A DNA stretch of 64,000 nucleotides from Patescibacteria group bacterium (GTDB lineage Bacteria; Patescibacteriota; Patescibacteriia; UBA2591; UBA6264): positions 22,048 to 86,047 of the forward strand of contig JADHVF010000003.1 in the NCBI GenBank assembly GCA_016784145.1, given 5' to 3'. The position numbers were made by a program, and so were the translations under genes. This document shows, piece after piece, positions 3,959 to 61,074 of this stretch; positions within the stretch are counted from its first letter, which is position 1, and every line of letters begins with the position of its first letter. Below the pieces are notes generated by a model. It made no database searches, was not told the DNA's origin, and saw only the letters and a program-made list of their open reading frames with translations.

Positions 3959-3987
3959 TTGACAAAAACAAAAAAATTTGCTACCAT
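3959..3987 (+). promoter_or_regulatory. sigma70-like promoter (TTGACA-17-TACCAT) for small membrane protein gene
   Basis: Exact TTGACA at 3959-3964, 17-nt spacer, weak -10 TACCAT. AAGGAGG SD at 4004-4010. Confidence 0.35.
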
Positions 3988-4016
3988 ATATATACAATCT
4001 AAAAAAGGAGGATACT

Positions 4017-4244
4017 TTGAAAAAATATACTGCAAGAAGAAAAATGATTCACAGAATCATATCCGGGCCATTATTTATGGCTATTGGGACATATCTCGTG
4101 TTTCAAACAAGCGGGGCTGGTTCAACTCCCGGAGAAATAGTTGTCTCCACGATATTATTCCCTGTCTGGTTATTTGGAATAGCAATGACAACATTCGGCA
4201 TTTATGTCCTTTTTCTTCCATTAATCAGGAAATACGATTTATAA
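4017..4244 (+). CDS. small two-helix membrane protein (hypothetical)
   Basis: ORF track starts at TTG 3978. AAGGAGG at 4004-4010 favours TTG 4017 or ATG 4044 as the real start. Two hydrophobic helices. Confidence 0.4.
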   Translation: MKKYTARRKMIHRIISGPLFMAIGTYLVFQTSGAGSTPGEIVVSTILFPVWLFGIAMTTFGIYVLFLPLIRKYDL

Positions 4245-4256
4245 AACAAAGTAAAC

Positions 4257-4285
4257 AAAAGCCGGCTAATTAAAGCCGGCTTTTC
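4257..4285 (+). terminator. rho-independent terminator
   Basis: AAAGCCGGCT-aatta-AAGCCGGCTTTT hairpin with T-run. Confidence 0.55.
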
Positions 4286-4334
4286 CCTTGTTTAAAATAA
4301 TAAGACACAAAACAACCTTTAATTAAACTTGCCA

Positions 4335-4523
4335 CCAAGTAGGCCCTACTTAGAGGCCTTTACCTCACTTAGAGGCCTTGCCCCTAAGTAGATATTGAGC
4401 ACGAATCTTACTGAGGGTTTTACTTAGAGGCCTTGCCCCTAAGTAGGGTAGAAATCAATAATCAGTAATCAATAATCAACAACCTCGCTGAGGGTTTTAC
4501 TTAGAGGCCTTGCCCCTAAGTAG
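4335..4523. repeat. cluster A of GC-rich palindromic repeat (core ACTTAGAGGCCTTGCCCCTAAGTAG) with degenerate copies and an ATCAATA heptad tract
   Basis: Exact cores at 4368-4391, 4422-4446 and 4499-4523. Partial copies at 4335-4359 and 4411-4420. Heptads at 4449-4481. Confidence 0.8.
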
Positions 4524-4546
4524 ATATTGAGCACAAATATCATGTA

Positions 4547-4619: not shown

Positions 4620-4880
4620 ATGGATTCAATTAGCTTTATTGAAAACGGATTAAAAATAGAATTCTCAATCGAAAAATTGCCAACCATTAATCACAAGATT
4701 AATGAAAAAATTAGTAAGACAATTTTAGAAAAAATGGGAAAAGCAATTGAAAAAAACGCTTCCATAGGAATAATAGAAGAATATACCAAAATCATTAAGG
4801 AAAAATTTCCTAACAAAATAAATGATTTTGATAAAATATTACACTATTCCATGGATAATCTAAAAAAAAGCCAACTTTAA
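4620..4880 (+). CDS. hypothetical small protein (86 aa)
   Basis: ORF with strong SD. Hairpin overlapping stop codon (AAGCCAACT/AGTTGGCTT 4868-4891). Confidence 0.4.
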   Translation: MDSISFIENGLKIEFSIEKLPTINHKINEKISKTILEKMGKAIEKNASIGIIEEYTKIIKEKFPNKINDFDKILHYSMDNLKKSQL

Positions 4881-8365: not shown

Positions 8366-9673
8366 ATGAATATTAAAAAAAACCAACTTGACCAAAGTTT
8401 AATTGAATTTATTGTAGAATTATCTACTTTAGAAATGGCTCCCTTTATAAAACAAGCAACAGCAGAGCTCTCAAAAGATATTGAAGTAGCTGGATTTCGT
8501 AAAGGAAAAGCTCCTGCCAATATTGTTCAGCAAGAAATTGGGGAAGATAAAATCTTGCAAGCCTCAGCAGAAAAAGCAATTAATCAAAAATATCCTGAAA
8601 TAATTGCTAAAGAAAAACTTCAACCAATTGATCAGCCAAAAATTGAAATTCAGAAAATAGCCAAAGATAATCCTCTTATTTTTAAAGTTATAGTTGCAAT
8701 CATCCCAAGTGTAAAAGTAGGAGATTATAAAAAAATTAAGATTAAACAAGAAGTTAAAGAAATAAAAAAACAAGACGTTGATAATGTTATTAAAGAGCTT
8801 CAAATGGCCAAGAAAAAAGAAATCCTTGTTCAAAGAAAAGCTAACAAGGGAGATAAAATAGAGGTTGATTTAAATCTTTTTATTGATAAAGTCCCAGTGG
8901 AAAACGGACAAGTTAAAAACTTTTCAACAATATTGGGAGGACAAGAACAAATTCCTGGCATATCCAAAAATCTTGAAGGATTAAAAAAGGGAGATAAAAA
9001 AGAATTTTCATTTAAATATCCTGATTCTCATTATGACAAAGTCCTGGCCGGGAAATTAGTAGATTTTAAAGCTGAAGTTAAAAATGTATATGAAATAGAA
9101 TTACCAAAACTTGATAATGATTTTGCCAAAGGATTAGGAAAATTTAAGACAGTTGAAGAATTAAAAAATAAAATTAAAGAGAATGTAGAGGCCGAACAAA
9201 AAAACAAACAATCTCAAAAAGCAGAAAAAGAAATATTAGAACAATTAGTTAAAATGTCTGAAATAGATAAAATCCCGACCATACTTGTTGATAAAGAAAC
9301 AGATAAAATGCTAGAAGAAATTAAAATGTCTATCAAAAATTATAATGACTTTTCTAATTTTGAGGATTATTTAAAAAATATCAAAAAAACAGAAGAACAA
9401 TTAAAAAAAGAACTTGGTCAAAGCGCTGAGCAAAGAGTAAAAACCTCTTTATGTATAAGGCAACTAGCAATTGATGAAAAAATAACAATTTCTGACAAAG
9501 AAGTGAAAGCTGAAATCGAAAAAATCCAAGCAATGTATAAAATGCAAGGCCAAGGAGAAGAACAAATACAAGAGATGGTAAACAATCTTCAAACTACTAA
9601 TGGACAAATTTATATTAAAAATCTATTGACAAATCGTAAAATTATTGAAAAATTAAAAGAAGAAATATTATAA
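8366..9673 (+). CDS. tig: trigger factor
   Basis: GFRKGKAP ribosome-binding signature. 435 aa with FKBP-like middle region. Confidence 0.8.
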
Positions 9674-9678
9674 GTTTT

Positions 9679-9750
9679 GCGGGCGTCGTATAGTGGCTAT
9701 TATACGTCCTTGCCAAGGATGAGACGGCGGTTCAATTCCGCTCGCCCGCT
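9679..9750 (+). tRNA. tRNA-Gly (GCC)
   Basis: Cloverleaf with acceptor GCGGGCG/CGCCCGC, anticodon loop TTGCCAA, T-loop TTCAATT. Confidence 0.8.
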
Positions 9751-9810
9751 TTTTCAAGAATTTATGCACAAAGACTATTCCCTATTTCGGAAATATGTCT
9801 TTTTTTTTTA

Positions 9811-10067
9811 TTACCTCACTTAGAGGCCTTGCCCCTAAGTAGGGTACAAATCAATAATCAGTAATCAATAATCAACAACCTCACTGAGGGTTCTACTTAG
9901 AGTTTACTTAGAGGCCTTGCCCCTAAGTAGAGTATAAATCAATAATCAGTAATCAATAATCAACAACCTCACTTAGAGGCCTTGCCCCTAAGTAGAATAA
10001 TCAACAATCTCCCTTAGAGTTTTACTTAGAGGCCTTGCCCCTAAGTAGACTCACTTAGAGGCCTTGA
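9811..10067. repeat. cluster B of the GC-rich palindromic repeat
   Basis: Cores at 9818-9842, 9906-9930, 9971-9995, 10024-10048, truncated copy 10051-10067. Spacings 88/65/53. ATCAATA heptads interleaved. Confidence 0.8.
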
Positions 10068-10126
10068 TTATACTTAAGAGGTCCAGCCTCCAAGAAGAGG
10101 GTGGACCTCAATAAAATTACTAAAAA

Positions 10127-10209
10127 TGGGTGGGGCAGGATTCGAACCTACGAAGGTAATCACCGTCAGATTTACAGTCTGATGCATTTGGCCGCTTTGC
10201 TACCCACCC
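10127..10209 (-). tRNA. tRNA-Tyr (GTA), long variable arm
   Basis: Reverse complement folds with acceptor GGGTGGG, anticodon loop CTGTAAA, T-arm GTAGG-TTCGAAT-CCTGC. Confidence 0.8.
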
Positions 10210-10216
10210 GTAAATT

Positions 10217-10289
<73 letters not shown>

Positions 10290-10342
10290 CAGGGGGTCAG
10301 TCTCCCTTTAGAGAGGTCTAACCCCTGTGTATAATTATACTT

Positions 10343-10705
10343 TTATGATTTTGATTTATGACTATGTTTTAATGATTCTCTTATTTTAGCTAGTTTTCTA
10401 AAAAAATCAAGATTAGTTAATTTTTTGAAAATATATTTTAAAATTAAATAAGTTTTTTTAAAAAACACATTAATCTTTTGAATATATTTTTTAATCAATA
10501 AAATTCTTCTAGAGAAACTATCTTTTATTTTATTTATTTTTCTATCAACCTTTTTTAGTAATAATCTCTTTTTAATTTCTGAAATTTCATCTGCTGTTGT
10601 ATCTGATAAATTAATTTTTGATAAAAAAAGAATTTTTTTTAAAAGAATATAAAAAATACCTCCCAAACAAGAAAAAGTAATAATTAAAAGAATAATATTA
10701 ATCAT
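10343..10705 (-). CDS. hypothetical small basic membrane protein
   Basis: N-terminal hydrophobic helix, K/R-rich remainder. Last gene of the fba-tpiA minus-strand string. Confidence 0.35.
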   Translation of the reverse strand: MINIILLIITFSCLGGIFYILLKKILFLSKINLSDTTADEISEIKKRLLLKKVDRKINKIKDSFSRRILLIKKYIQKINVFFKKTYLILKYIFKKLTNLDFFRKLAKIRESLKHSHKSKS

Positions 10706-14849: not shown

Positions 14850-14862
14850 GTTTAGAAATGAC

Positions 14863-14984
14863 TATTGATTAGTGATTATTGATTATTGATTATTGATTAT
14901 TAATTATTGATTAGTGATTATTGATTAGTGATTATTGATTATTGATTAGTGATTATTAATTAGTGATTATTGATTATTATTCTG
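14863..14984. repeat. TGATTAn heptad microsatellite (about 17 units)
   Basis: ttgattagtgattattgattattgatta... period 7, between mscS stop (14977) and terminator. Confidence 0.85.
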
Positions 14985-16043: not shown

Positions 16044-17465
16044 TTAAAACGGGTCTTCAACACTTATTTTATCAGATTCTCCTGAATAAGCAAGTCTTTT
16101 TTCTAAATTTTTAAAACTAGCCGATGCTTCATTGAAATACATTTTAATCATACCACCAGCTGGACCATGACGATGTTTAGCAACATGAATTTCGGCTATG
16201 TTTCTTTCTTCGTCAGGGCAAACCTTAATCCCCTTGTCCATAATTTTACGATATATAAACATAACCACATCTGCATCTTGTTCTAAACTGCCTGATTCAC
16301 GTAAGTCAGATAATTTTGGAATTGACGGAGTTCTTGCTTCTGGAGCACGCGAAAGTTGAGAAAGCGCTAAGACTGGAATGTCTAATTCTCTGGCAATTGC
16401 CTTCAATGCCCTTGATATTGCTGAAACTTCTTGAACCCTGCCTTCACTAGATCTTAATCCTGAATCCATTAACTGTAAGTAATCCAAAATCAATAGTCCT
16501 AAGCCATGTTCTGCCTTTAATCTTCTTGCTTTTGTCTTAATTTCAATGCTATTTACAATTGGAGAATCATCCATATATATAGGAGCTTCTGATAATGCGC
16601 CAAAAGCATTACCAAGCTTTTGAAAATCGCCACCAGCGTCCTCTTGCTTGCCTGTTAATTGCCCTGTTCTCATTTTCCAAATATTTACATCAGCATGAGC
16701 GCATATTAGCCTGTCAGTTAATTGCTCTTTTGACATTTCTAAACTAAAAATACCAACTGGAACTTTTTGATAAACCGCCACTTGTCTAGCAATGTCTAAT
16801 GCTAAAGAAGATTTTCCAATTGATGGTCTAGCTGCTAGTATAATTAATTCAGATGGCTGAAGCCCTGCTAAAACATTATCCAAGTCAACAAAACCAGTTG
16901 GAACACCTCTGAAACTTTTTTCTCCTTTATGTAGTTCGTCTACTCTTTCAAATGCTTCTGTCAAGGTACTCTTAAGTGGGACAAACTTTTGTTTTAAAAT
17001 TGCTTGAGAAACAGAAAATATTTTTTGTTCTGCTTTATCTAAAATTTTAACAAGATCCTTGCCCTTGGAATAAGCTAATTGAATTGTTTCTGTTGAAAAC
17101 TTTATTAATTTTCTAAGAGAAGATTTTTTTTGGATAATCTTAGCATAAGAAATGGCATTACTTGAATCAGGAACACTGTTGGACAAAGAAGCTAAATAAC
17201 TTCTTCCACCAATGTCTTTTAATTGATTTTTCTCCTCTAAAAGGTCAGCAATACTCAATGTATCAATTGGCTCTCTTTTGTCCCAAGCATCTATCATTGC
17301 CAAAAAAATCATTTTATGAGAATCTTTATAAAAATCATCTGCAATAACAATGTCAGCAATTTTAATCATAACATCTTTATCAATCAACAAAGACCCAAGC
17401 AATGCTTGTTCTGCTTCTATGTTCTGAGGAGGCAATTTTTCTATTGATTCTTTCTTTTTAGCCAT
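16044..17465 (-). CDS. dnaB: replicative DNA helicase DnaB
   Basis: PPQNIEAEQALLGSLLID N-terminal signature, Walker A ARPSIGKSSLALDIA, RecA-like C-terminal domain. Length 473 aa (no intein). Confidence 0.85.
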   Translation of the reverse strand: MAKKKESIEKLPPQNIEAEQALLGSLLIDKDVMIKIADIVIADDFYKDSHKMIFLAMIDAWDKREPIDTLSIADLLEEKNQLKDIGGRSYLASLSNSVPDSSNAISYAKIIQKKSSLRKLIKFSTETIQLAYSKGKDLVKILDKAEQKIFSVSQAILKQKFVPLKSTLTEAFERVDELHKGEKSFRGVPTGFVDLDNVLAGLQPSELIILAARPSIGKSSLALDIARQVAVYQKVPVGIFSLEMSKEQLTDRLICAHADVNIWKMRTGQLTGKQEDAGGDFQKLGNAFGALSEAPIYMDDSPIVNSIEIKTKARRLKAEHGLGLLILDYLQLMDSGLRSSEGRVQEVSAISRALKAIARELDIPVLALSQLSRAPEARTPSIPKLSDLRESGSLEQDADVVMFIYRKIMDKGIKVCPDEERNIAEIHVAKHRHGPAGGMIKMYFNEASASFKNLEKRLAYSGESDKISVEDPF

Positions 17466-29287: not shown

Positions 29288-29854
29288 ATGATATATGCTA
29301 TTTTTGGAAAAATTTTAGCCAAGCAAACCAAGACAATAATACTTGAAGTAAATAATTTATTTTTTGAAATTTTTGTTACAAATTCTTTTATAAACAAAAC
29401 AAAAATAGACCAAGATATTAAATTGTTTACTTATTTAGCCGTAAAAGAAGAAGCATTTCAATTATATGGATTTGAAAGCGAAGAAGAGTTGAATTATTTT
29501 AAATTATTAAAAAAAATCTCTGGCATCGGACCCAAGTCAGCCATAAATATTTTATCTTTAGTTGGTATAAATAATTTGGAAAAAGCAATTTTAGAAAAAG
29601 ATTCTAACGTACTAACAAAAGTATCTGGAATTGGATCTAAAATTGCTGAAAAAATTATTTTAGAACTAAAAGGAAAAATCAAAGCAACAATTAAAACTTA
29701 TACATCTATTGATGATGAAACAACAATCGATGCACTAACAAGTCTAGGATATTCCATGCAAGAATCTAGGCAAGTAATAAAAAAAATTCCAGATAATATG
29801 ATAAATGCTGAAGATAGAGTTAAACAAGCATTAAAAATTTTATCTGGAAAATAA
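29288..29854 (+). CDS. ruvA: Holliday junction branch-migration protein RuvA
   Basis: OB N-domain, HhH motifs ISGIGPKSAINILS and VSGIGSKIAEKII. Confidence 0.8.
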   Translation: MIYAIFGKILAKQTKTIILEVNNLFFEIFVTNSFINKTKIDQDIKLFTYLAVKEEAFQLYGFESEEELNYFKLLKKISGIGPKSAINILSLVGINNLEKAILEKDSNVLTKVSGIGSKIAEKIILELKGKIKATIKTYTSIDDETTIDALTSLGYSMQESRQVIKKIPDNMINAEDRVKQALKILSGK

Positions 29855-29935
29855 ATAATTAATGATTAATGATTAGTGATTAGTGATTAGTGATTAATGA
29901 TTAATGATTAATAATTAATGATTAGTGATTAATGA
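29855..29935. repeat. TGATTAn heptad microsatellite filling the whole ruvA/rplU convergent spacer
   Basis: attaatgattaatgattagtgattagtgatta..., 11 to 12 units. Confidence 0.85.
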
Positions 29936-30325
29936 TTATTTCGTTTTCTTAACCGTGCTTTTAGCCGGTTTTTTCTTAACCGTGCTTTTAGCCGGTTTTT
30001 TTACTTGGGCAGAAGTAAATGACAAAATCTTGATTTTTGTCTGTAATTGTCTATGCCCTTGTTTTCTTTTATAACGATTTTTACTTTTGTATTTAATGAC
30101 AACAATCTTTGGAGCTTTTTGTTGCTCTAAAATTTCAGCCTTAACAACCATTTTAAGTAATGGTTTGCCTATTTCAATTTTTTTAGACAAATCAAAAAAC
30201 AACAAAACATTATCTAGCATTATTTTGTCACCTGGTTGGCCATCAATTTTCTCTATATTTAATAAATCTCCCTTTTTTACAAGATATTGTTTTCCTCCTG
30301 TTTTTAATACTACAAATTTTTCCAT
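29936..30325 (-). CDS. rplU: 50S ribosomal protein L21 with lysine-rich C-terminal extension
   Basis: MEKFVVLKTGGKQYLVKKGD matches the L21 start. C-terminal KKPAKSTVKK duplicated (27-bp DNA tandem duplication 29947-30000). Confidence 0.8.
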   Translation of the reverse strand: MEKFVVLKTGGKQYLVKKGDLLNIEKIDGQPGDKIMLDNVLLFFDLSKKIEIGKPLLKMVVKAEILEQQKAPKIVVIKYKSKNRYKRKQGHRQLQTKIKILSFTSAQVKKPAKSTVKKKPAKSTVKKTK

Positions 30326-39518: not shown

Positions 39519-39900
39519 TTAATTTTCTACTTAGGTCTACTTAGGGGCAAGGCCTCTAAGTAAAACTCTCAGTGAGGTAGTTGATTATTGATTATTGATT
39601 ACTAATTACTGATTATTGATTACTGATTATTGATTTCTATTCTACTTAGGGGCAAGGCCTCTAAGTAAAGACATAAGTCAAGAAAAGCAAGTATTAACAC
39701 CAAAACCTCATCCTGTTCCTCGACCAAAACCTGACTTAGGGGCAAGGCCTCTAAGTGAGGTAGTTGATTATTGATTATTGATTATTGATTTGTACTCTAC
39801 TTAGGGGCAAGACCTCTAAGTGAGGTAGTTGATTATTGATTACTGATTATTGATTACTACTCTACTTAGGGGCAAGACCTCTAAGTGAGAGTAAGTGAGG
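39519..39900. repeat. cluster C of the GC-rich palindromic repeat (opposite orientation: CTACTTAGGGGCAAGGCCTCTAAGT) with TGATTAn heptads
   Basis: Cores at 39537-39561, 39642-39666, 39735-39758, 39797-39821, 39862-39886. Confidence 0.8.
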
Positions 39901-45165: not shown

Positions 45166-46323
45166 TTAGATATATTTAATAGTTGTATTTTTTAAAGCTA
45201 ATTTTATCAATTTTTTGATTTTTAATTTTTTAATTGCTTGGTCAACTTCTTTAATATTAGATTTTGTAGCTGGATGTTTTGGTAAAAACCTAGAACAACA
45301 ATCCTGGTCAGGCAAAATTGATATTTCATAAGTATTAATTTGTTTTGCTAAGTTAATTATAGCTTGTTTATTTTTTCCAACCAAAGGCCTAAAAATAAGC
45401 AAATCAATTGCATTGTTTATTACAGCCATGTTAGCAATTGTTTGCGAAGCAACTTGTCCTAAATTTTCTCCTGTTACCAGGGCTATAATTTTCTCTTTGG
45501 TTGCCACTTGCTCTGCTATTCTTAACATAAATATTCTATACAAAACAACTCTTAATTTGCCAGGGCATTTTAAAAAAATTTCTTGTTGAACATCTGCAAA
45601 AGGAACTAAATAAAGTTTTGCCTTGTTCTTTGCTTTAGATAATACTTGAATTACTTTAATTACCTTGTCTACTGACTCCTTGTTCGTATATGGATAAGCA
45701 TGAAAATGAATGAAAATCAACTCTACTCCTCTTTTAGCCATTAAATAAGAGGCCACTGGCGAATCAATGCCACCAGAAATCAACGATAATGCCCTGCCAC
45801 TGACACCAACTGGCAATCCCCCATAACAAATTATTTTTTCAAAATAAATAAAAGCATATTTTTCAACTATTTCAATAAAACATGTTAAGTCAGGGTTTGT
45901 TAAATTGATTTTCTTTTTGTTCATTTTTTTAAGAAGAAAAACAGCTATATTTTTATTTATATCCGGAGAAAGCATTGGAAAATCTTTTTTTGACCTCTGT
46001 GTTAACACTCTAAATGTTTTAAATTTCTTTTTTTCAATTAATTCAAAAATAATTGTTTGAATTGATTCAATATCTTGTTTAGCGCTATAAGCAAAGGCAA
46101 AATAAGCAAGTCCAAAAACATCTTTTAACTTAGTTGTTATTTCAACTATATTTTTTTCTCCTTTAGACGATAATTTAACAATAATTCTCCCCGAGATCCT
46201 TTTAATAAAAACAAAGAAAGCATTATCAATGTTTGTTTGAATATTGGTTACTAATTTTTCTTCAAAAAATCTCCGATTTTTCCCTTTTATTCCAATTTCA
46301 TCATAATGACAAATAATATACAT
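45166..46323 (-). CDS. thiI: tRNA 4-thiouridine synthase ThiI
   Basis: THUMP N-domain, PP-loop LISGGIDSPVASY. Confidence 0.8.
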   Translation of the reverse strand: MYIICHYDEIGIKGKNRRFFEEKLVTNIQTNIDNAFFVFIKRISGRIIVKLSSKGEKNIVEITTKLKDVFGLAYFAFAYSAKQDIESIQTIIFELIEKKKFKTFRVLTQRSKKDFPMLSPDINKNIAVFLLKKMNKKKINLTNPDLTCFIEIVEKYAFIYFEKIICYGGLPVGVSGRALSLISGGIDSPVASYLMAKRGVELIFIHFHAYPYTNKESVDKVIKVIQVLSKAKNKAKLYLVPFADVQQEIFLKCPGKLRVVLYRIFMLRIAEQVATKEKIIALVTGENLGQVASQTIANMAVINNAIDLLIFRPLVGKNKQAIINLAKQINTYEISILPDQDCCSRFLPKHPATKSNIKEVDQAIKKLKIKKLIKLALKNTTIKYI

Positions 46324-47442: not shown

Positions 47443-47498
47443 AAATAATTAATAAATGATTATTAATTATTGATTAGTGATTAGCAATTATTGATTAA
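47443..47498. repeat. TGATTAn heptad tract between trxB stop and its terminator
   Basis: aataattaataaatgattattaattattgattagtgattagcaattattgatta. Confidence 0.7.
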
Positions 47499-59963: not shown

Positions 59964-60112
59964 AGATAAATCTCTGAAAAAAAAGTAAAAAATGTTTCTT
60001 TTGTCATATCAACTAAAGCAAATGAAGCGAGGAAAACGAAGAGGCAAGCCAAAAATAAACATTTACTAATACATTGGGGTCAATCCCCTCCAAGTTAGGA
60101 CTGACTTCCTGC

Positions 60113-60634: not shown

Positions 60635-60751
60635 TTTTTTTGTTCTCCTTTGATTATTAATGTACTTAACTACATTATGTATGCAGCCATTGTATTATTA
60701 ACCAATATAGCATATTTTAAGGTTTTGTCAATCGCAAACTGCCTAAATAAA

Positions 60752-61063
60752 AAATGTGCAATATCAAAGATCGCACACTCACAAGTAGTTACTTAGAGGC
60801 CTTGCCCCTAAGTAGATACACTTAGAGATATTACTTAGAGGCCTTGCCCCTAAGTAGATATTGAGCACGAATCAATAATCAATAATCAGTAATCATTCAC
60901 TTAGAGATATTACTTAGAGGCCTTGCCCCTAAGTAGAGTCACTTAGAGATATTACTTAGAGGCCTTGCCCCTAAGTAGAGTCACTTAGAGATATTACTTA
61001 GAGGCCTTGCCCCTAAGTAGATATTGAGCACAAAAAAGTGTGCAATATCAAAGGTTGCACACT
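60752..61063. repeat. cluster D: five palindromic-repeat cores in a 42-bp tandem unit, bounded by two copies of a second hairpin element (AGTGTGCAA-n9-TTGCACACT)
   Basis: Cores 60791-60815, 60833-60857, 60922-60946, 60954-60978, 60996-61020. Bounding hairpins 60752-60778 and 61037-61063. Confidence 0.8.
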
Positions 61064-61074
61064 AGAAGAAAAAA

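What the first reader, a model, noticed from the sequence alone, without database searches (positions are those of the whole stretch)
9811..10110. Repeat cluster B sits between convergent tRNA-Gly and tRNA-Tyr/Thr and ends in a separate GC hairpin
Four and a half cores with spacings of 88, 65 and 53 bp lie exactly between the 3' ends of tRNA-Gly(GCC) (+) and tRNA-Tyr (-). A distinct hairpin GAGGTCCA-n16-TGGACCTC (10078-10110) follows. Stable hairpins between convergent tRNA transcription units could act as a terminator or insulator, or as RNase processing sites. Alternatively, tRNA loci may be preferred insertion sites for the element.
Basis: partly seen in the sequence, partly recalled or inferred. 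Interest (0 to 1): 0.55.

Follow-up and report, generated by a model that had tools for sequence, protein, structure and literature searches.

The report
Species-specific palindromic intergenic repeat array
The repeats between the convergent tRNA genes are one of at least four arrays of a short palindromic DNA repeat private to this tiny-genome (Patescibacteria) bacterium; the array sits between terminators the tRNA genes already have, so it looks like ordinary REP-like filler or selfish DNA, not a dedicated terminator.

Summary
Four exact 21-nt cores (CTTAGAGGCCTTGCCCCTAAG), a half core and a separate GC hairpin (10078-10109) lie between tRNA-Gly(GCC)+ and tRNA-Tyr/Thr-.

The array is not special to this locus. 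The window holds 17 cores (0 expected by chance) in four head-to-tail arrays: A ~4.4 kb, B here, C ~39.7 kb, D ~60.9 kb. Each array is a mosaic of the GC-rich imperfect palindrome plus AT-rich linker modules, including (AATCAAT/AATCAGT)n heptads. An 85-nt composite unit is 96% identical between arrays A and B.

The host is a ~30% GC Patescibacteria MAG. The core was not found as a repeat in any of the five other sequence collections searched. A relative that keeps the same gene and tRNA order has only a 209-bp spacer with two canonical terminators and no repeats.

In the window, tRNA-Gly already has a hairpin+T10 terminator and tRNA-Tyr has the GC hairpin. The cores lack U-tracts and face either way relative to transcription. 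Association with tRNA genes is not significant (p≈0.22).

Best reading: a lineage-specific REP/BIME- or NIME-like intergenic mosaic repeat, inserted and locally amplified in a permissive 3'-end spacer. The mobilising enzyme is unknown. Modest interest: a new member of a known kind.

The parts
9679..9750 (+). tRNA-Gly(GCC), left boundary of the spacer
   Evidence: ARAGORN; Rfam tRNA 55.9 bits
9770..9809 (+). Intrinsic terminator of tRNA-Gly: hairpin 9770-9802 plus a T10 run 9800-9809. It lies proximal to the repeats.
   Evidence: Sequence; fold -8.3 kcal/mol, z -2.3
9813..10066 (+). Repeat array B. Four head-to-tail units of 88, 65, 53 and ~29 nt, each beginning with the palindromic core, followed by a truncated half core.
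9819..9839 (+). Core 1 (CTTAGAGGCCTTGCCCCTAAG). The stem extends to ACCTCAC.../...GTAGGGT.
9849..9875 (+). Heptad linker (AATCAAT/AATCAGT), 3.9 copies
   Evidence: TRF
9907..9927 (+). Core 2
9937..9963 (+). Heptad linker, 3.9 copies
   Evidence: TRF
9972..9992 (+). Core 3
10025..10045 (+). Core 4
10054..10066 (+). Truncated left half core (CTTAGAGGCCTTG) at the right edge of the array
10078..10109 (-). Unique GC-rich hairpin, unrelated to the repeat family, 17 nt downstream of the tRNA-Tyr 3' end. Probable terminator or 3'-end stabiliser of the tRNA-Thr/tRNA-Tyr unit, though its tail (UUAAGUAUAAU) is only weakly U-rich.
   Evidence: (I7). A canonical terminator occupies the same position in relative L009.
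10127..10209 (-). tRNA-Tyr(GTA), right boundary of the spacer
10217..10288 (-). tRNA-Thr(GGT), co-oriented with and upstream of tRNA-Tyr
4329..4524 (+). Array A of the same family: three exact cores (4368, 4423, 4500) plus degenerate half cores at its left edge. It lies between terminator 4260-4285 and a TTGACA-17-TATTAT promoter. No tRNA is adjacent.
39526..39900 (-). Array C: five cores on the - strand (two carry a C>T change), long heptad runs and one unique 66-nt linker. It lies between the Wzy_C-family (O-antigen ligase-like, Pfam PF04932) gene and tRNA-Ser.
60789..61030 (+). Array D: five cores with 42-nt and 79-nt units, downstream of tRNA-Val (-) and antisense to local transcription
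61038..61068 (-). tRNA-Val terminator hairpin plus U-run. A diverged second copy at 60750-60781 brackets array D on its other side.

Best explanation
Cluster B is one locus of a lineage-specific, dispersed intergenic mosaic repeat.

Building block. The unit is a ~26-bp GC-rich imperfect palindrome (TACTTAGAGGCCTTGCCCCTAAGTAG) with an invariant A.C mismatch. It is joined to AT-rich linker modules: AATCAAT/AATCAGT heptads, AACAACCTCACTGAGGGTT, ATATTGAGCAC and CACTTAGAGATATT. Composite units of 42-105 nt are arranged strictly head-to-tail.

Mechanism. These steps are inferred, not shown:
1. Composite units were copied between intergenic sites, by transposition or gene conversion carried out by an enzyme encoded elsewhere in the genome. 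One possibility is an HUH/Y1 (RAYT or IS200/IS605-type) enzyme, or a recombinase, that recognises the single-stranded hairpin.
2. Units were then amplified and reshuffled locally by slippage or unequal recombination. This left truncated half cores at the array edges.
3. Arrays persist where they do little harm: at gene 3' ends, between a terminator and the next promoter, or between convergent units.

At this locus the array was added between two transcription units that already end on their own. tRNA-Gly has a hairpin plus T10. tRNA-Thr/Tyr has the unique GC hairpin. Termination or insulation is therefore at most a side effect of the array.
For: Shown:
- 17 cores against 0 expected, all in four arrays, with no solitary copies and no moderately diverged copies.
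- Modular units are shared between arrays, and an 85-nt unit is 96% identical between A and B (D7).
- Heptad orientation relative to the core is fixed. Embedded heptads use T or C at the variable position, whereas stand-alone arrays use T, G or A.
- Independent assemblies of the same strain break or gap exactly in the cores, as expected for a multi-copy repeat.
- The syntenic relative L009 (tig - tRNA-Gly+ / tRNA-Tyr-, tRNA-Thr- - FBA - TIM) has a 209-bp spacer with two canonical terminators and no core, even allowing 5 mismatches.
- The intergenic region orthologous to array A is only 113-258 bp in relatives.
- The core is absent as a repeat from GTDB representative genomes, JGI metagenomes, IMG/VR, phages and plasmids.
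- Arrays A, B and D lie distal to canonical terminators.
- The cores have no U-tract and no fixed orientation relative to transcription.
- Size, extragenic position and 3'-end/convergent placement match published REP descriptions (PMC3733652, PMC2817692).
Against: - No transposase, RAYT or recombinase is encoded in the 64-kb window or in ~16 kb of flanks, so the mobilising activity is unidentified.
- Only one strain (~99.9% identical contigs) carries the repeat. Arrays A, C and D are invariant among samples, so no ongoing mobility or copy-number change is demonstrated. The one variant of B (L001/L026) is interrupted by scaffold Ns.
- The strictly head-to-tail arrangement is atypical for REP/BIME/REPIN. 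GTAG sits at the 3' side of the palindrome and is largely base-paired.
- The near-perfect identity of the cores, set in variable linkers, could equally reflect selection for protein binding.
- Array C follows a protein-coding gene with no recognisable terminator, so an RNA-level role there is open.
- The relative used for the empty-site comparison is distant (51% trigger-factor identity), so gain cannot be formally separated from loss.
Confidence: 0.6

Rival explanations
1. RNA-level function. The core hairpins act as terminators, insulators, RNase-processing sites or exonuclease blocks between the convergent tRNA units.
For: The hairpins are stable (-13 to -15 kcal/mol; spacer z-scores -8.0 and -8.5). 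On the - strand the A.C mismatch becomes G.U, and the hairpin is followed by U-rich (UUGAUUA)n. E. coli REPs can act as partly Rho-dependent attenuators and mRNA stabilisers (bioRxiv 10.64898/2026.03.23.713779). Array C sits directly in the 3' region of the Wzy_C-family gene with no other terminator.
Against: No U-tract abuts the stem on either strand; the scan found 1 marginal site against 0.8 expected. Both tRNA units already have their own terminal structures, and 7 of 13 tRNAs, including these, have a T4-T7 run right after the 3' end. Core orientation relative to transcription is mixed (A and C sense, D antisense). The genome otherwise uses canonical hairpin+T terminators. The syntenic relative manages with two plain terminators.
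Confidence: 0.15
2. Site-specific targeting of tRNA loci. The element integrates preferentially next to tRNA genes, as integrases do.
For: Three of four arrays abut a tRNA gene. The region downstream of tRNA-Gly(GCC) is variable in relatives: a large serine recombinase with 48-nt inverted repeats in L012/L013, and an unrelated 3x69-nt tandem repeat in L011.
Against: 15 of 34 intergenic gaps of 40 bp or more flank a tRNA, giving p=0.22. Array A has no tRNA nearby, and C is 5' whereas B and D are 3' of their tRNAs. Thirteen of the 17 tRNA genes in about 80 kb have no array. The unit has no sequence similarity to any tRNA.
Confidence: 0.1
3. DNA-level host function. The arrays are clustered binding sites for a sequence-specific protein (recombinase, nucleoid or topology factor), in the way dRS3 sites in neisserial NIME arrays are proposed to promote recombination.
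For: 15 of 17 cores are identical while the linkers vary. A GC-rich core alternates with AT-rich linkers, giving a %GC wave like the one described for NIMEs (PMC1797815). The palindrome has half-sites CTTAG/CTAAG. The arrays were invariant among population samples.
Against: No candidate binding protein is known. The flanking genes are unrelated housekeeping genes, and the small ORFs next to the arrays are unrelated to each other. The family is absent from relatives, so it cannot serve a conserved core function.
Confidence: 0.13
4. Degenerate or orphan CRISPR array, or an assembly artefact.
For: Short, partly palindromic direct repeats are separated by variable spacers. Metagenome assemblies break at them.
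Against: The 'spacers' are themselves repeated modules of very unequal length (16-79 nt) shared between arrays. There are no cas genes in about 80 kb. The same arrays were assembled identically in several ENA and Logan samples, including a 92.5-kb contig spanning C and D.
Confidence: 0.02

Closest known systems
REP elements and BIME clusters of Proteobacteria (GTAG/CGTC-tagged REPs; REPINs mobilised by RAYT Y1 transposases)
   Same: A 20-40-bp imperfect palindrome with a short loop and conserved stem mismatches. Extragenic, multi-copy and species-specific. Clustered with linker motifs. Placed mainly at gene 3' ends and between convergent or unidirectional genes. A GTAG motif lies at one end. 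G.T pairing occurs in the stem (PMC3733652, PMC2817692, PMC3333891).
   Different: Every copy is head-to-tail, whereas BIMEs and REPINs use alternating or inverted orientation and head-to-tail dimers are rare. GTAG lies 3' of the palindrome and is mostly base-paired, not an unpaired 5' head. No RAYT was seen. The host is an AT-rich Patescibacteria, and none of the three full-text searches for such repeats in this group returned a report.
Neisserial intergenic mosaic elements (NIMEs: 20-bp dRS3 palindromes flanking families of RS elements)
   Same: Arrays in which one short GC-richer palindrome alternates with several families of 20-150-bp AT-richer repeat segments, giving a %GC wave. Arrays lie in intergenic DNA, and array edges are irregular (PMC1797815).
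   Different: There is no sequence relationship. dRS3 is a known phage/transposase integration site, and NIMEs flank variable surface-protein genes. Here the neighbours are housekeeping genes and tRNAs, and no cognate recombinase is known.
Thermomicrobium roseum GTAG-23 REP blocks
   Same: REP units concentrated in large tandem blocks at a few loci, reiterated together with segments of flanking DNA (PMC3733652).
   Different: A different sequence family and phylum. The orientation rules were not compared.
IS200/IS605-derived palindrome-associated elements and MITEs
   Same: A short non-coding unit with a sub-terminal imperfect hairpin. The 5' flank of the cores is TTAC or TCAC, which resembles the tetranucleotide targets of this IS family. 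That resemblance rests on my own knowledge and was not tested.
   Different: There are no terminal inverted repeats around a unit and no clear target-site signature. The units are far shorter than typical MITEs. Mobility is not demonstrated.

Membership tests
REP (repetitive extragenic palindrome) | 20-40-bp imperfect palindrome able to form a stem-loop | tested here: met
   26-bp TACTTAGAGGCCTTGCCCCTAAGTAG: an 11-12-bp stem with one A.C (or G.U) mismatch and a 3-nt loop. RNA -13.1 and -15.3 kcal/mol; DNA -5.7 and -7.3 kcal/mol.
REP (repetitive extragenic palindrome) | Extragenic location, mainly at 3' ends or between convergent or unidirectional genes | tested here: met
   All 17 cores are intergenic. 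B lies between convergent units; A, C and D between unidirectional ones.
REP (repetitive extragenic palindrome) | High copy number spread over the genome (usually more than 100 per genome) | not testable with these tools
   17 cores in 64 kb and none in a further ~16 kb. The whole genome is not available here, but contig breaks at the cores imply multi-copy status.
REP (GTAG/CGTC super-families) | Unpaired GT(A/G)G or CGTC head at the 5' end of the palindrome | tested here: not met
   GTAG follows 16 of 17 cores but lies on the 3' side and pairs with the 5' TAC. The 5' flank is TTAC or TCAC. This is the mirror of the canonical arrangement (PMC2817692 Table 1).
BIME / REPIN | Neighbouring REPs in alternating or inverted orientation at regular spacing | tested here: not met
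   All cores within each of the four arrays share one orientation, with spacings of 42-105 nt.
REP/RAYT system | A cognate RAYT (Y1/HUH transposase) gene flanked by inverted REPs in the same genome | not testable with these tools
   None in the window or flanks. The rest of the genome could not be searched.
NIME-like mosaic array | A short palindrome alternating with several families of repeat segments, with a %GC wave | tested here: met
   At least four linker module types are shared among arrays. 24-nt GC oscillates between 0.17 and 0.58 along the core/linker units of B. This is architectural resemblance only, not homology.
Intrinsic (Rho-independent) terminator | GC-rich hairpin immediately followed by a U-tract on the transcribed strand | tested here: not met
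   The cores have no T-run within 0-2 nt of the stem on either strand. The feature is met by the separate tRNA-Gly terminator 9770-9809. It is only weakly met by the GC hairpin 10078-10109, whose tail is UUAAGUAUAAU.
CRISPR array | Regularly spaced repeats with unique spacers of uniform length, usually with cas genes | tested here: not met
   Spacers are 16-79 nt, are themselves repeated and are shared between arrays. No cas genes were found.
Rfam RNA families | A match to any curated covariance model | tested here: not met
   Only tRNAs reach gathering score. The best other hit in 9740-10360 scores 22.5 bits against a gathering score of 42.5.

The most novel reading that the evidence does not exclude
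The arrays could represent a previously undescribed mobile or recombinogenic repeat system of the Candidate Phyla Radiation. In this reading, a composite unit (palindromic core plus heptad tail) is propagated strictly head-to-tail by an enzyme other than a classical RAYT. The abundant stand-alone (TGATTAN)n heptad arrays at gene 3' ends would be its precursors or landing pads. The arrays would then shape transcription-unit boundaries in a streamlined ~1-Mb genome.
Probability: 0.15. Interest if true: 0.55.

Novelty: new member of a known kind. Interest (0 to 1): 0.3.

Why it matters
Patescibacteria genomes are small and gene-dense, so roughly 1 kb of one repeat family plus several heptad arrays in 64 kb is a visible share of the non-coding DNA.

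Practical consequences:
- These repeats break metagenome assemblies of this organism. Contigs from several samples end or carry N gaps exactly at the cores.
- They could be mis-called as CRISPRs, small RNAs or terminators.

Biological consequences: if a cognate enzyme is found, this would extend REP-like systems to the Candidate Phyla Radiation. It would also offer a head-to-tail variant for comparison with REPIN/RAYT biology.

For the question actually asked, the answer is mostly deflationary. The convergent tRNA units already have their own 3'-end structures, and the link between the repeats and tRNA genes is within chance.

Tried and rejected
1. Exact or loop-degenerate core searches in other collections.
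- GTDB representative genomes gave one hit, inside an RNase R-like coding region of a Bacteroidales MAG. I treat it as chance.
- JGI metagenomes gave four contigs, all the same locus of a 64-68% GC organism. There a single hairpin plus T-run follows a tRNA. With 19 specified bases this is chance-level similarity, not the family.
- IMG/VR, phage and plasmid collections gave nothing.

2. Copy-number polymorphism among samples. All contigs are about 99.9% identical, and arrays A, C and D are invariant. The one variant of B (12-nt insertion and altered linkers in ERZ24794647) is interrupted by scaffold Ns, so it is inconclusive.

3. A transposase, RAYT or cas gene in the window or flanks. Only housekeeping genes were found.

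4. A shared small protein next to the arrays. The 86-, 120- and 131-aa ORFs are unrelated to each other.

5. Derivation of the unit from a tRNA. There is no similarity above shuffled controls.

6. Rfam at relaxed thresholds gave only sub-threshold noise.

7. Diverged cores in relatives or in the window. None exist with 2-5 mismatches.

8. The idea that cores were inserted into pre-existing heptad arrays. This is weakened because embedded heptads use T/C at the variable position and stand-alone arrays use T/G/A.

9. Replication terminus or dif at the strand switch near 10 kb. The GC skew simply follows coding strand, so I did not pursue it.

10. Literature searches for such repeats in Patescibacteria/CPR returned nothing relevant.

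I ran no further search on walking along the 92.5-kb contig or on a RAYT query, because the expected yield was low.

Full report
**1. What is there**

The spacer 9751-10126 lies between tRNA-Gly(GCC) (+, 9679-9750) and tRNA-Tyr(GTA) (-, 10127-10209). tRNA-Thr(GGT) (-, 10217-10288) lies just beyond. ARAGORN and Rfam agree on all three.

The spacer contains four exact copies of CTTAGAGGCCTTGCCCCTAAG, starting at 9819, 9907, 9972 and 10025, with spacings of 88, 65 and 53. A truncated left half lies at 10054-10066. A further ACTTAGAG fragment lies at 9895-9902.

The separate hairpin GAGGTCCA-n16-TGGACCTC is at 10078-10109. It extends to 13-nt arms, folds at -23 to -24 kcal/mol, and has no other copy in the window.

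The core occurs 17 times in the window against 0.00 expected in shuffles.

**2. Anatomy of the repeat**

With its flanks the core is a 26-bp imperfect palindrome, TACTTAGAGGCCTTGCCCCTAAGTAG.
- It has a 3-nt loop and one invariant mismatch: A.C on the + strand, G.U on the complement.
- As RNA it folds at -13.1 and -15.3 kcal/mol. As DNA it folds at -5.7 and -7.3 kcal/mol.

Splitting all arrays at the core shows a mosaic. Each core is followed by one of a few linker modules:
- GTAG(G/A)GTA plus (AATCAAT/AATCAGT)n heptads plus AACAACCTC, with or without ACTGAGGGTTYT;
- ATATTGAGCAC(G/A)AA;
- (A/G)(T/G)(A/T)CACTTAGAGATATT.

Units are 42-105 nt long and always head-to-tail within an array. An 85-nt composite unit is 96% identical between array A (4422-4506) and array B (9818-9902) (D7). 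What is shared between loci is therefore larger than the palindrome.

Of the 17 cores, 15 are identical and two in array C carry a single C>T change. There are no copies with 2-5 mismatches and no solitary copies. Truncated or degenerate half cores mark the array edges.

The GC-rich cores (about 50-57% GC) alternate with AT-rich linkers in a 30% GC genome.

**3. The four arrays and their surroundings**

- Array A (about 4329-4524, + cores) lies between the terminator of a small unannotated membrane-protein gene (hairpin 4260-4285) and a TTGACA-17-TATTAT promoter. No tRNA is nearby.
- Array B is the finding.
- Array C (39526-39900, - cores) lies between a Wzy_C-family (O-antigen ligase-like) gene and tRNA-Ser, upstream of the tRNA. 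No canonical terminator precedes it.
- Array D (60789-61030, + cores) lies downstream of tRNA-Val (-). It is bracketed by two diverged copies of the tRNA-Val terminator hairpin.

Relative to local transcription the cores are sense in A and C, antisense in D, and both in B.

All neighbouring genes are unrelated housekeeping genes: NusA, H+-PPase, trigger factor, aldolase, TIM, Nudix, a ferredoxin-reductase-like gene, L19 and others. Small ORFs next to the arrays are unrelated to each other.

No transposase, RAYT, recombinase or cas gene occurs in the window or in about 16 kb of extra flank.

**4. Organism and relatives**

The trigger factor next to the finding is 100% identical to MBL7054031.1, annotated 'Patescibacteria group bacterium'. 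The next best homologues are only 51-54% identical.

Contigs from several ENA and Logan samples are about 99.9% identical to the window.
- They end or carry N gaps exactly in the cores, the heptad arrays and the GC hairpin. This is typical of multi-copy repeats.
- Arrays A, C and D are otherwise invariant between samples.
- One sample shows a variant of B with different linkers, but the contig is interrupted by Ns, so it is inconclusive.

The most informative relative is L009. It keeps NusA - H+-PPase - tig - tRNA-Gly(GCC)+ / tRNA-Tyr-, tRNA-Thr- - ORF - aldolase - TIM. Its inter-tRNA spacer is only 209 bp, it contains two canonical hairpin+T terminators, and it has no core even at 5 mismatches.

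In other relatives the region after tRNA-Gly(GCC) differs again:
- L011 has two tRNA-Leu genes and an unrelated 3x69-nt hairpin tandem repeat.
- L012/L013 have a large serine recombinase gene with 48-nt inverted repeats.

The intergenic region orthologous to array A is 113-258 bp in relatives, against 1.2 kb here.

Outside this strain the core was not found as a repeat:
- GTDB representative genomes gave one hit inside a Bacteroidales coding region.
- JGI metagenomes gave one high-GC tRNA terminator locus on four contigs, which is chance-level for 19 specified bases.
- IMG/VR, phage and plasmid collections gave nothing.

**5. Does it terminate or insulate?**

tRNA-Gly has its own hairpin+T10 terminator (9770-9809) before the first core. 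tRNA-Tyr is followed after 17 nt by the unique GC hairpin, at the position where L009 has a canonical terminator. Seven of the 13 tRNA genes, including Gly, Tyr, Ser and Val, also have T4-T7 directly after the discriminator base.

The cores themselves have no U-tract adjacent to the stem on either strand. A consensus scan of 9500-10500 finds one marginal terminator-like site against 0.8 expected. Elsewhere the genome uses ordinary hairpin+T terminators.

The mixed orientation of the cores adds to this. Together these points argue against a dedicated terminator or insulator role. A secondary REP-like effect on RNA is still possible, particularly for array C. Such effects (exonuclease block, Rho-dependent attenuation) have been shown for an E. 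coli REP cluster (bioRxiv 10.64898/2026.03.23.713779).

The GC hairpin is a separate feature. It is most simply the 3'-end structure of the tRNA-Thr/Tyr unit, although its tail (UUAAGUAUAAU) is only weakly U-rich.

**6. Are tRNA loci preferred?**

Three of four arrays touch a tRNA gene. In this compact genome, however, 15 of the 34 intergenic gaps of 40 bp or more also flank a tRNA, which gives P(3 or more of 4) = 0.22.
- Array A has no tRNA neighbour.
- Array C is 5' of its tRNA, while B and D are 3'.
- Thirteen of the 17 tRNA genes in about 80 kb have no array.
- The unit has no similarity to any tRNA.

Both tRNA genes and repeats occupy operon boundaries, and that is enough to explain the co-occurrence. 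The variability downstream of tRNA-Gly(GCC) in relatives does suggest that this particular spacer is permissive.

**7. Best explanation and comparison with known systems**

The evidence fits a lineage-specific, dispersed intergenic mosaic repeat. A hairpin-forming palindromic core with AT-rich linkers was copied between permissive 3'-end spacers, then expanded and reshuffled locally.

It works like REP/BIME elements in these respects: size, imperfect palindrome, extragenic 3'-end or convergent placement, clustering with linker motifs, and species specificity (PMC3733652, PMC2817692, PMC3333891). Architecturally it also resembles neisserial NIME arrays, where a short palindrome alternates with families of repeat segments and produces a %GC wave (PMC1797815).

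Membership in REP/RAYT proper is not established.
- The GT(A/G)G head is on the wrong (3') side and is base-paired.
- Orientation is strictly head-to-tail, not alternating.
- No RAYT could be looked for outside the window.

The invariant mismatch and the near-perfect conservation of the cores within variable linkers fit recognition by a strand-specific hairpin-binding enzyme or another protein. That is inference only.

**8. Verdict**

It is partly unsupported: the cores do not look like terminators, and tRNA targeting is not shown.

The finding is a new member of a known kind of bacterial repeat, in a phylum where three full-text literature searches returned no description of such repeats. Interest is modest.

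Noticed in passing
window 14859-14978, 29854-29938, 47457-47497; also L025 3942-4100, L022 289-330 and 7012-7040: Stand-alone heptamer arrays (TGATTAN)n of up to 17 or more copies sit at gene 3' ends. Some exactly fill the gap between convergent stop codons (ruvA/rplU) or lie between a stop codon and its terminator. They carry stop codons in all frames on both strands. They use T, G or A at the variable position, whereas heptads embedded in the core arrays use T or C.
   Followed up: partly
window 60750-60781 and 61038-61068: Array D is bracketed by two diverged direct copies (~33 nt) of the tRNA-Val terminator hairpin plus U-run. This may be a footprint of how the array was inserted or expanded. 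The ATATTGAGCAC linker module is also partly complementary to the left arm of that hairpin.
   Followed up: partly
window 10289-10345 (-) and 60053-60112 (+): tRNA-Thr and tRNA-Phe share a ~65-nt promoter/leader module, 68% identical without gaps. It includes a GC-rich leader hairpin that ends 2 nt before the tRNA 5' end and a common GGACTGAC..CCTG motif. Both tRNAs start with GCCGAG.
   Followed up: partly
window, 3' flanks of tRNAs at 9751, 10126, 39388, 46487, 57242, 60185, 61074: Seven of 13 tRNA genes have a T4-T7 run immediately after the discriminator base, and no CCA is encoded. The acceptor stem plus T-run may itself contribute to termination.
   Followed up: no
window 29944-30001: A perfect 27-nt tandem duplication (2.1 copies, 100% match) lies inside the 3' part of the ribosomal protein L21 gene (29936-30325, -). 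It amounts to an in-frame 9-aa duplication.
   Followed up: no
window 4017-4244 (+): A likely unannotated ~75-aa small membrane-protein gene with an AGGAGG ribosome-binding site, a TTG start and its own terminator (4260-4285). The listed ORF 3959-4273 is in a different frame and is probably spurious.
   Followed up: partly
L012 5312-7077 and L013 (relative, trigger factor 49% identical): A large serine recombinase gene (Resolvase + Recombinase + Zn_ribbon_recom domains) flanked by 48-nt, 96% complementary inverted repeats lies directly after, and overlapping, tRNA-Gly(GCC). It is probably an integrative element at the same tRNA.
   Followed up: partly
L011 5616-5822; L009 5880-5999: Relatives carry their own unrelated tandem hairpin repeats next to the same tRNA neighbourhood. 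L011 has a 3x69-nt repeat after tRNA-Gly-Leu-Leu. L009 has a 2x60-nt repeat upstream of tRNA-Thr; each unit contains two small inverted repeats, one of which differs between the copies as GCCGC/GCGGC versus CCTGC/GCAGG (read from the sequence, not folded).
   Followed up: no
window 4647-4820, 16088-16218, 45591-45796, 46072-46145: SNPs between samples of the same ~99.9% identical population are tightly clustered in a few 100-200-bp tracts. This suggests recombination imports, not uniform drift.
   Followed up: no
L022 5181-5927 (about 3.4-4.1 kb beyond the right end of the window): A LAGLIDADG_2 homing-endonuclease ORF sits in a gene-poor stretch between trmD and tRNA-Ile. It may lie in an intron or another mobile insertion.
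   Followed up: no
L014-L017 (JGI metagenome contigs, 64-68% GC): An unrelated high-GC organism uses a hairpin with the same 19 stem bases (ACTTAGAGGC-GAG/CAG-GCCCCTAAGT, including the A.C mismatch) plus a T-run as the terminator directly after a tRNA gene. I judged this a chance coincidence.
   Followed up: partly
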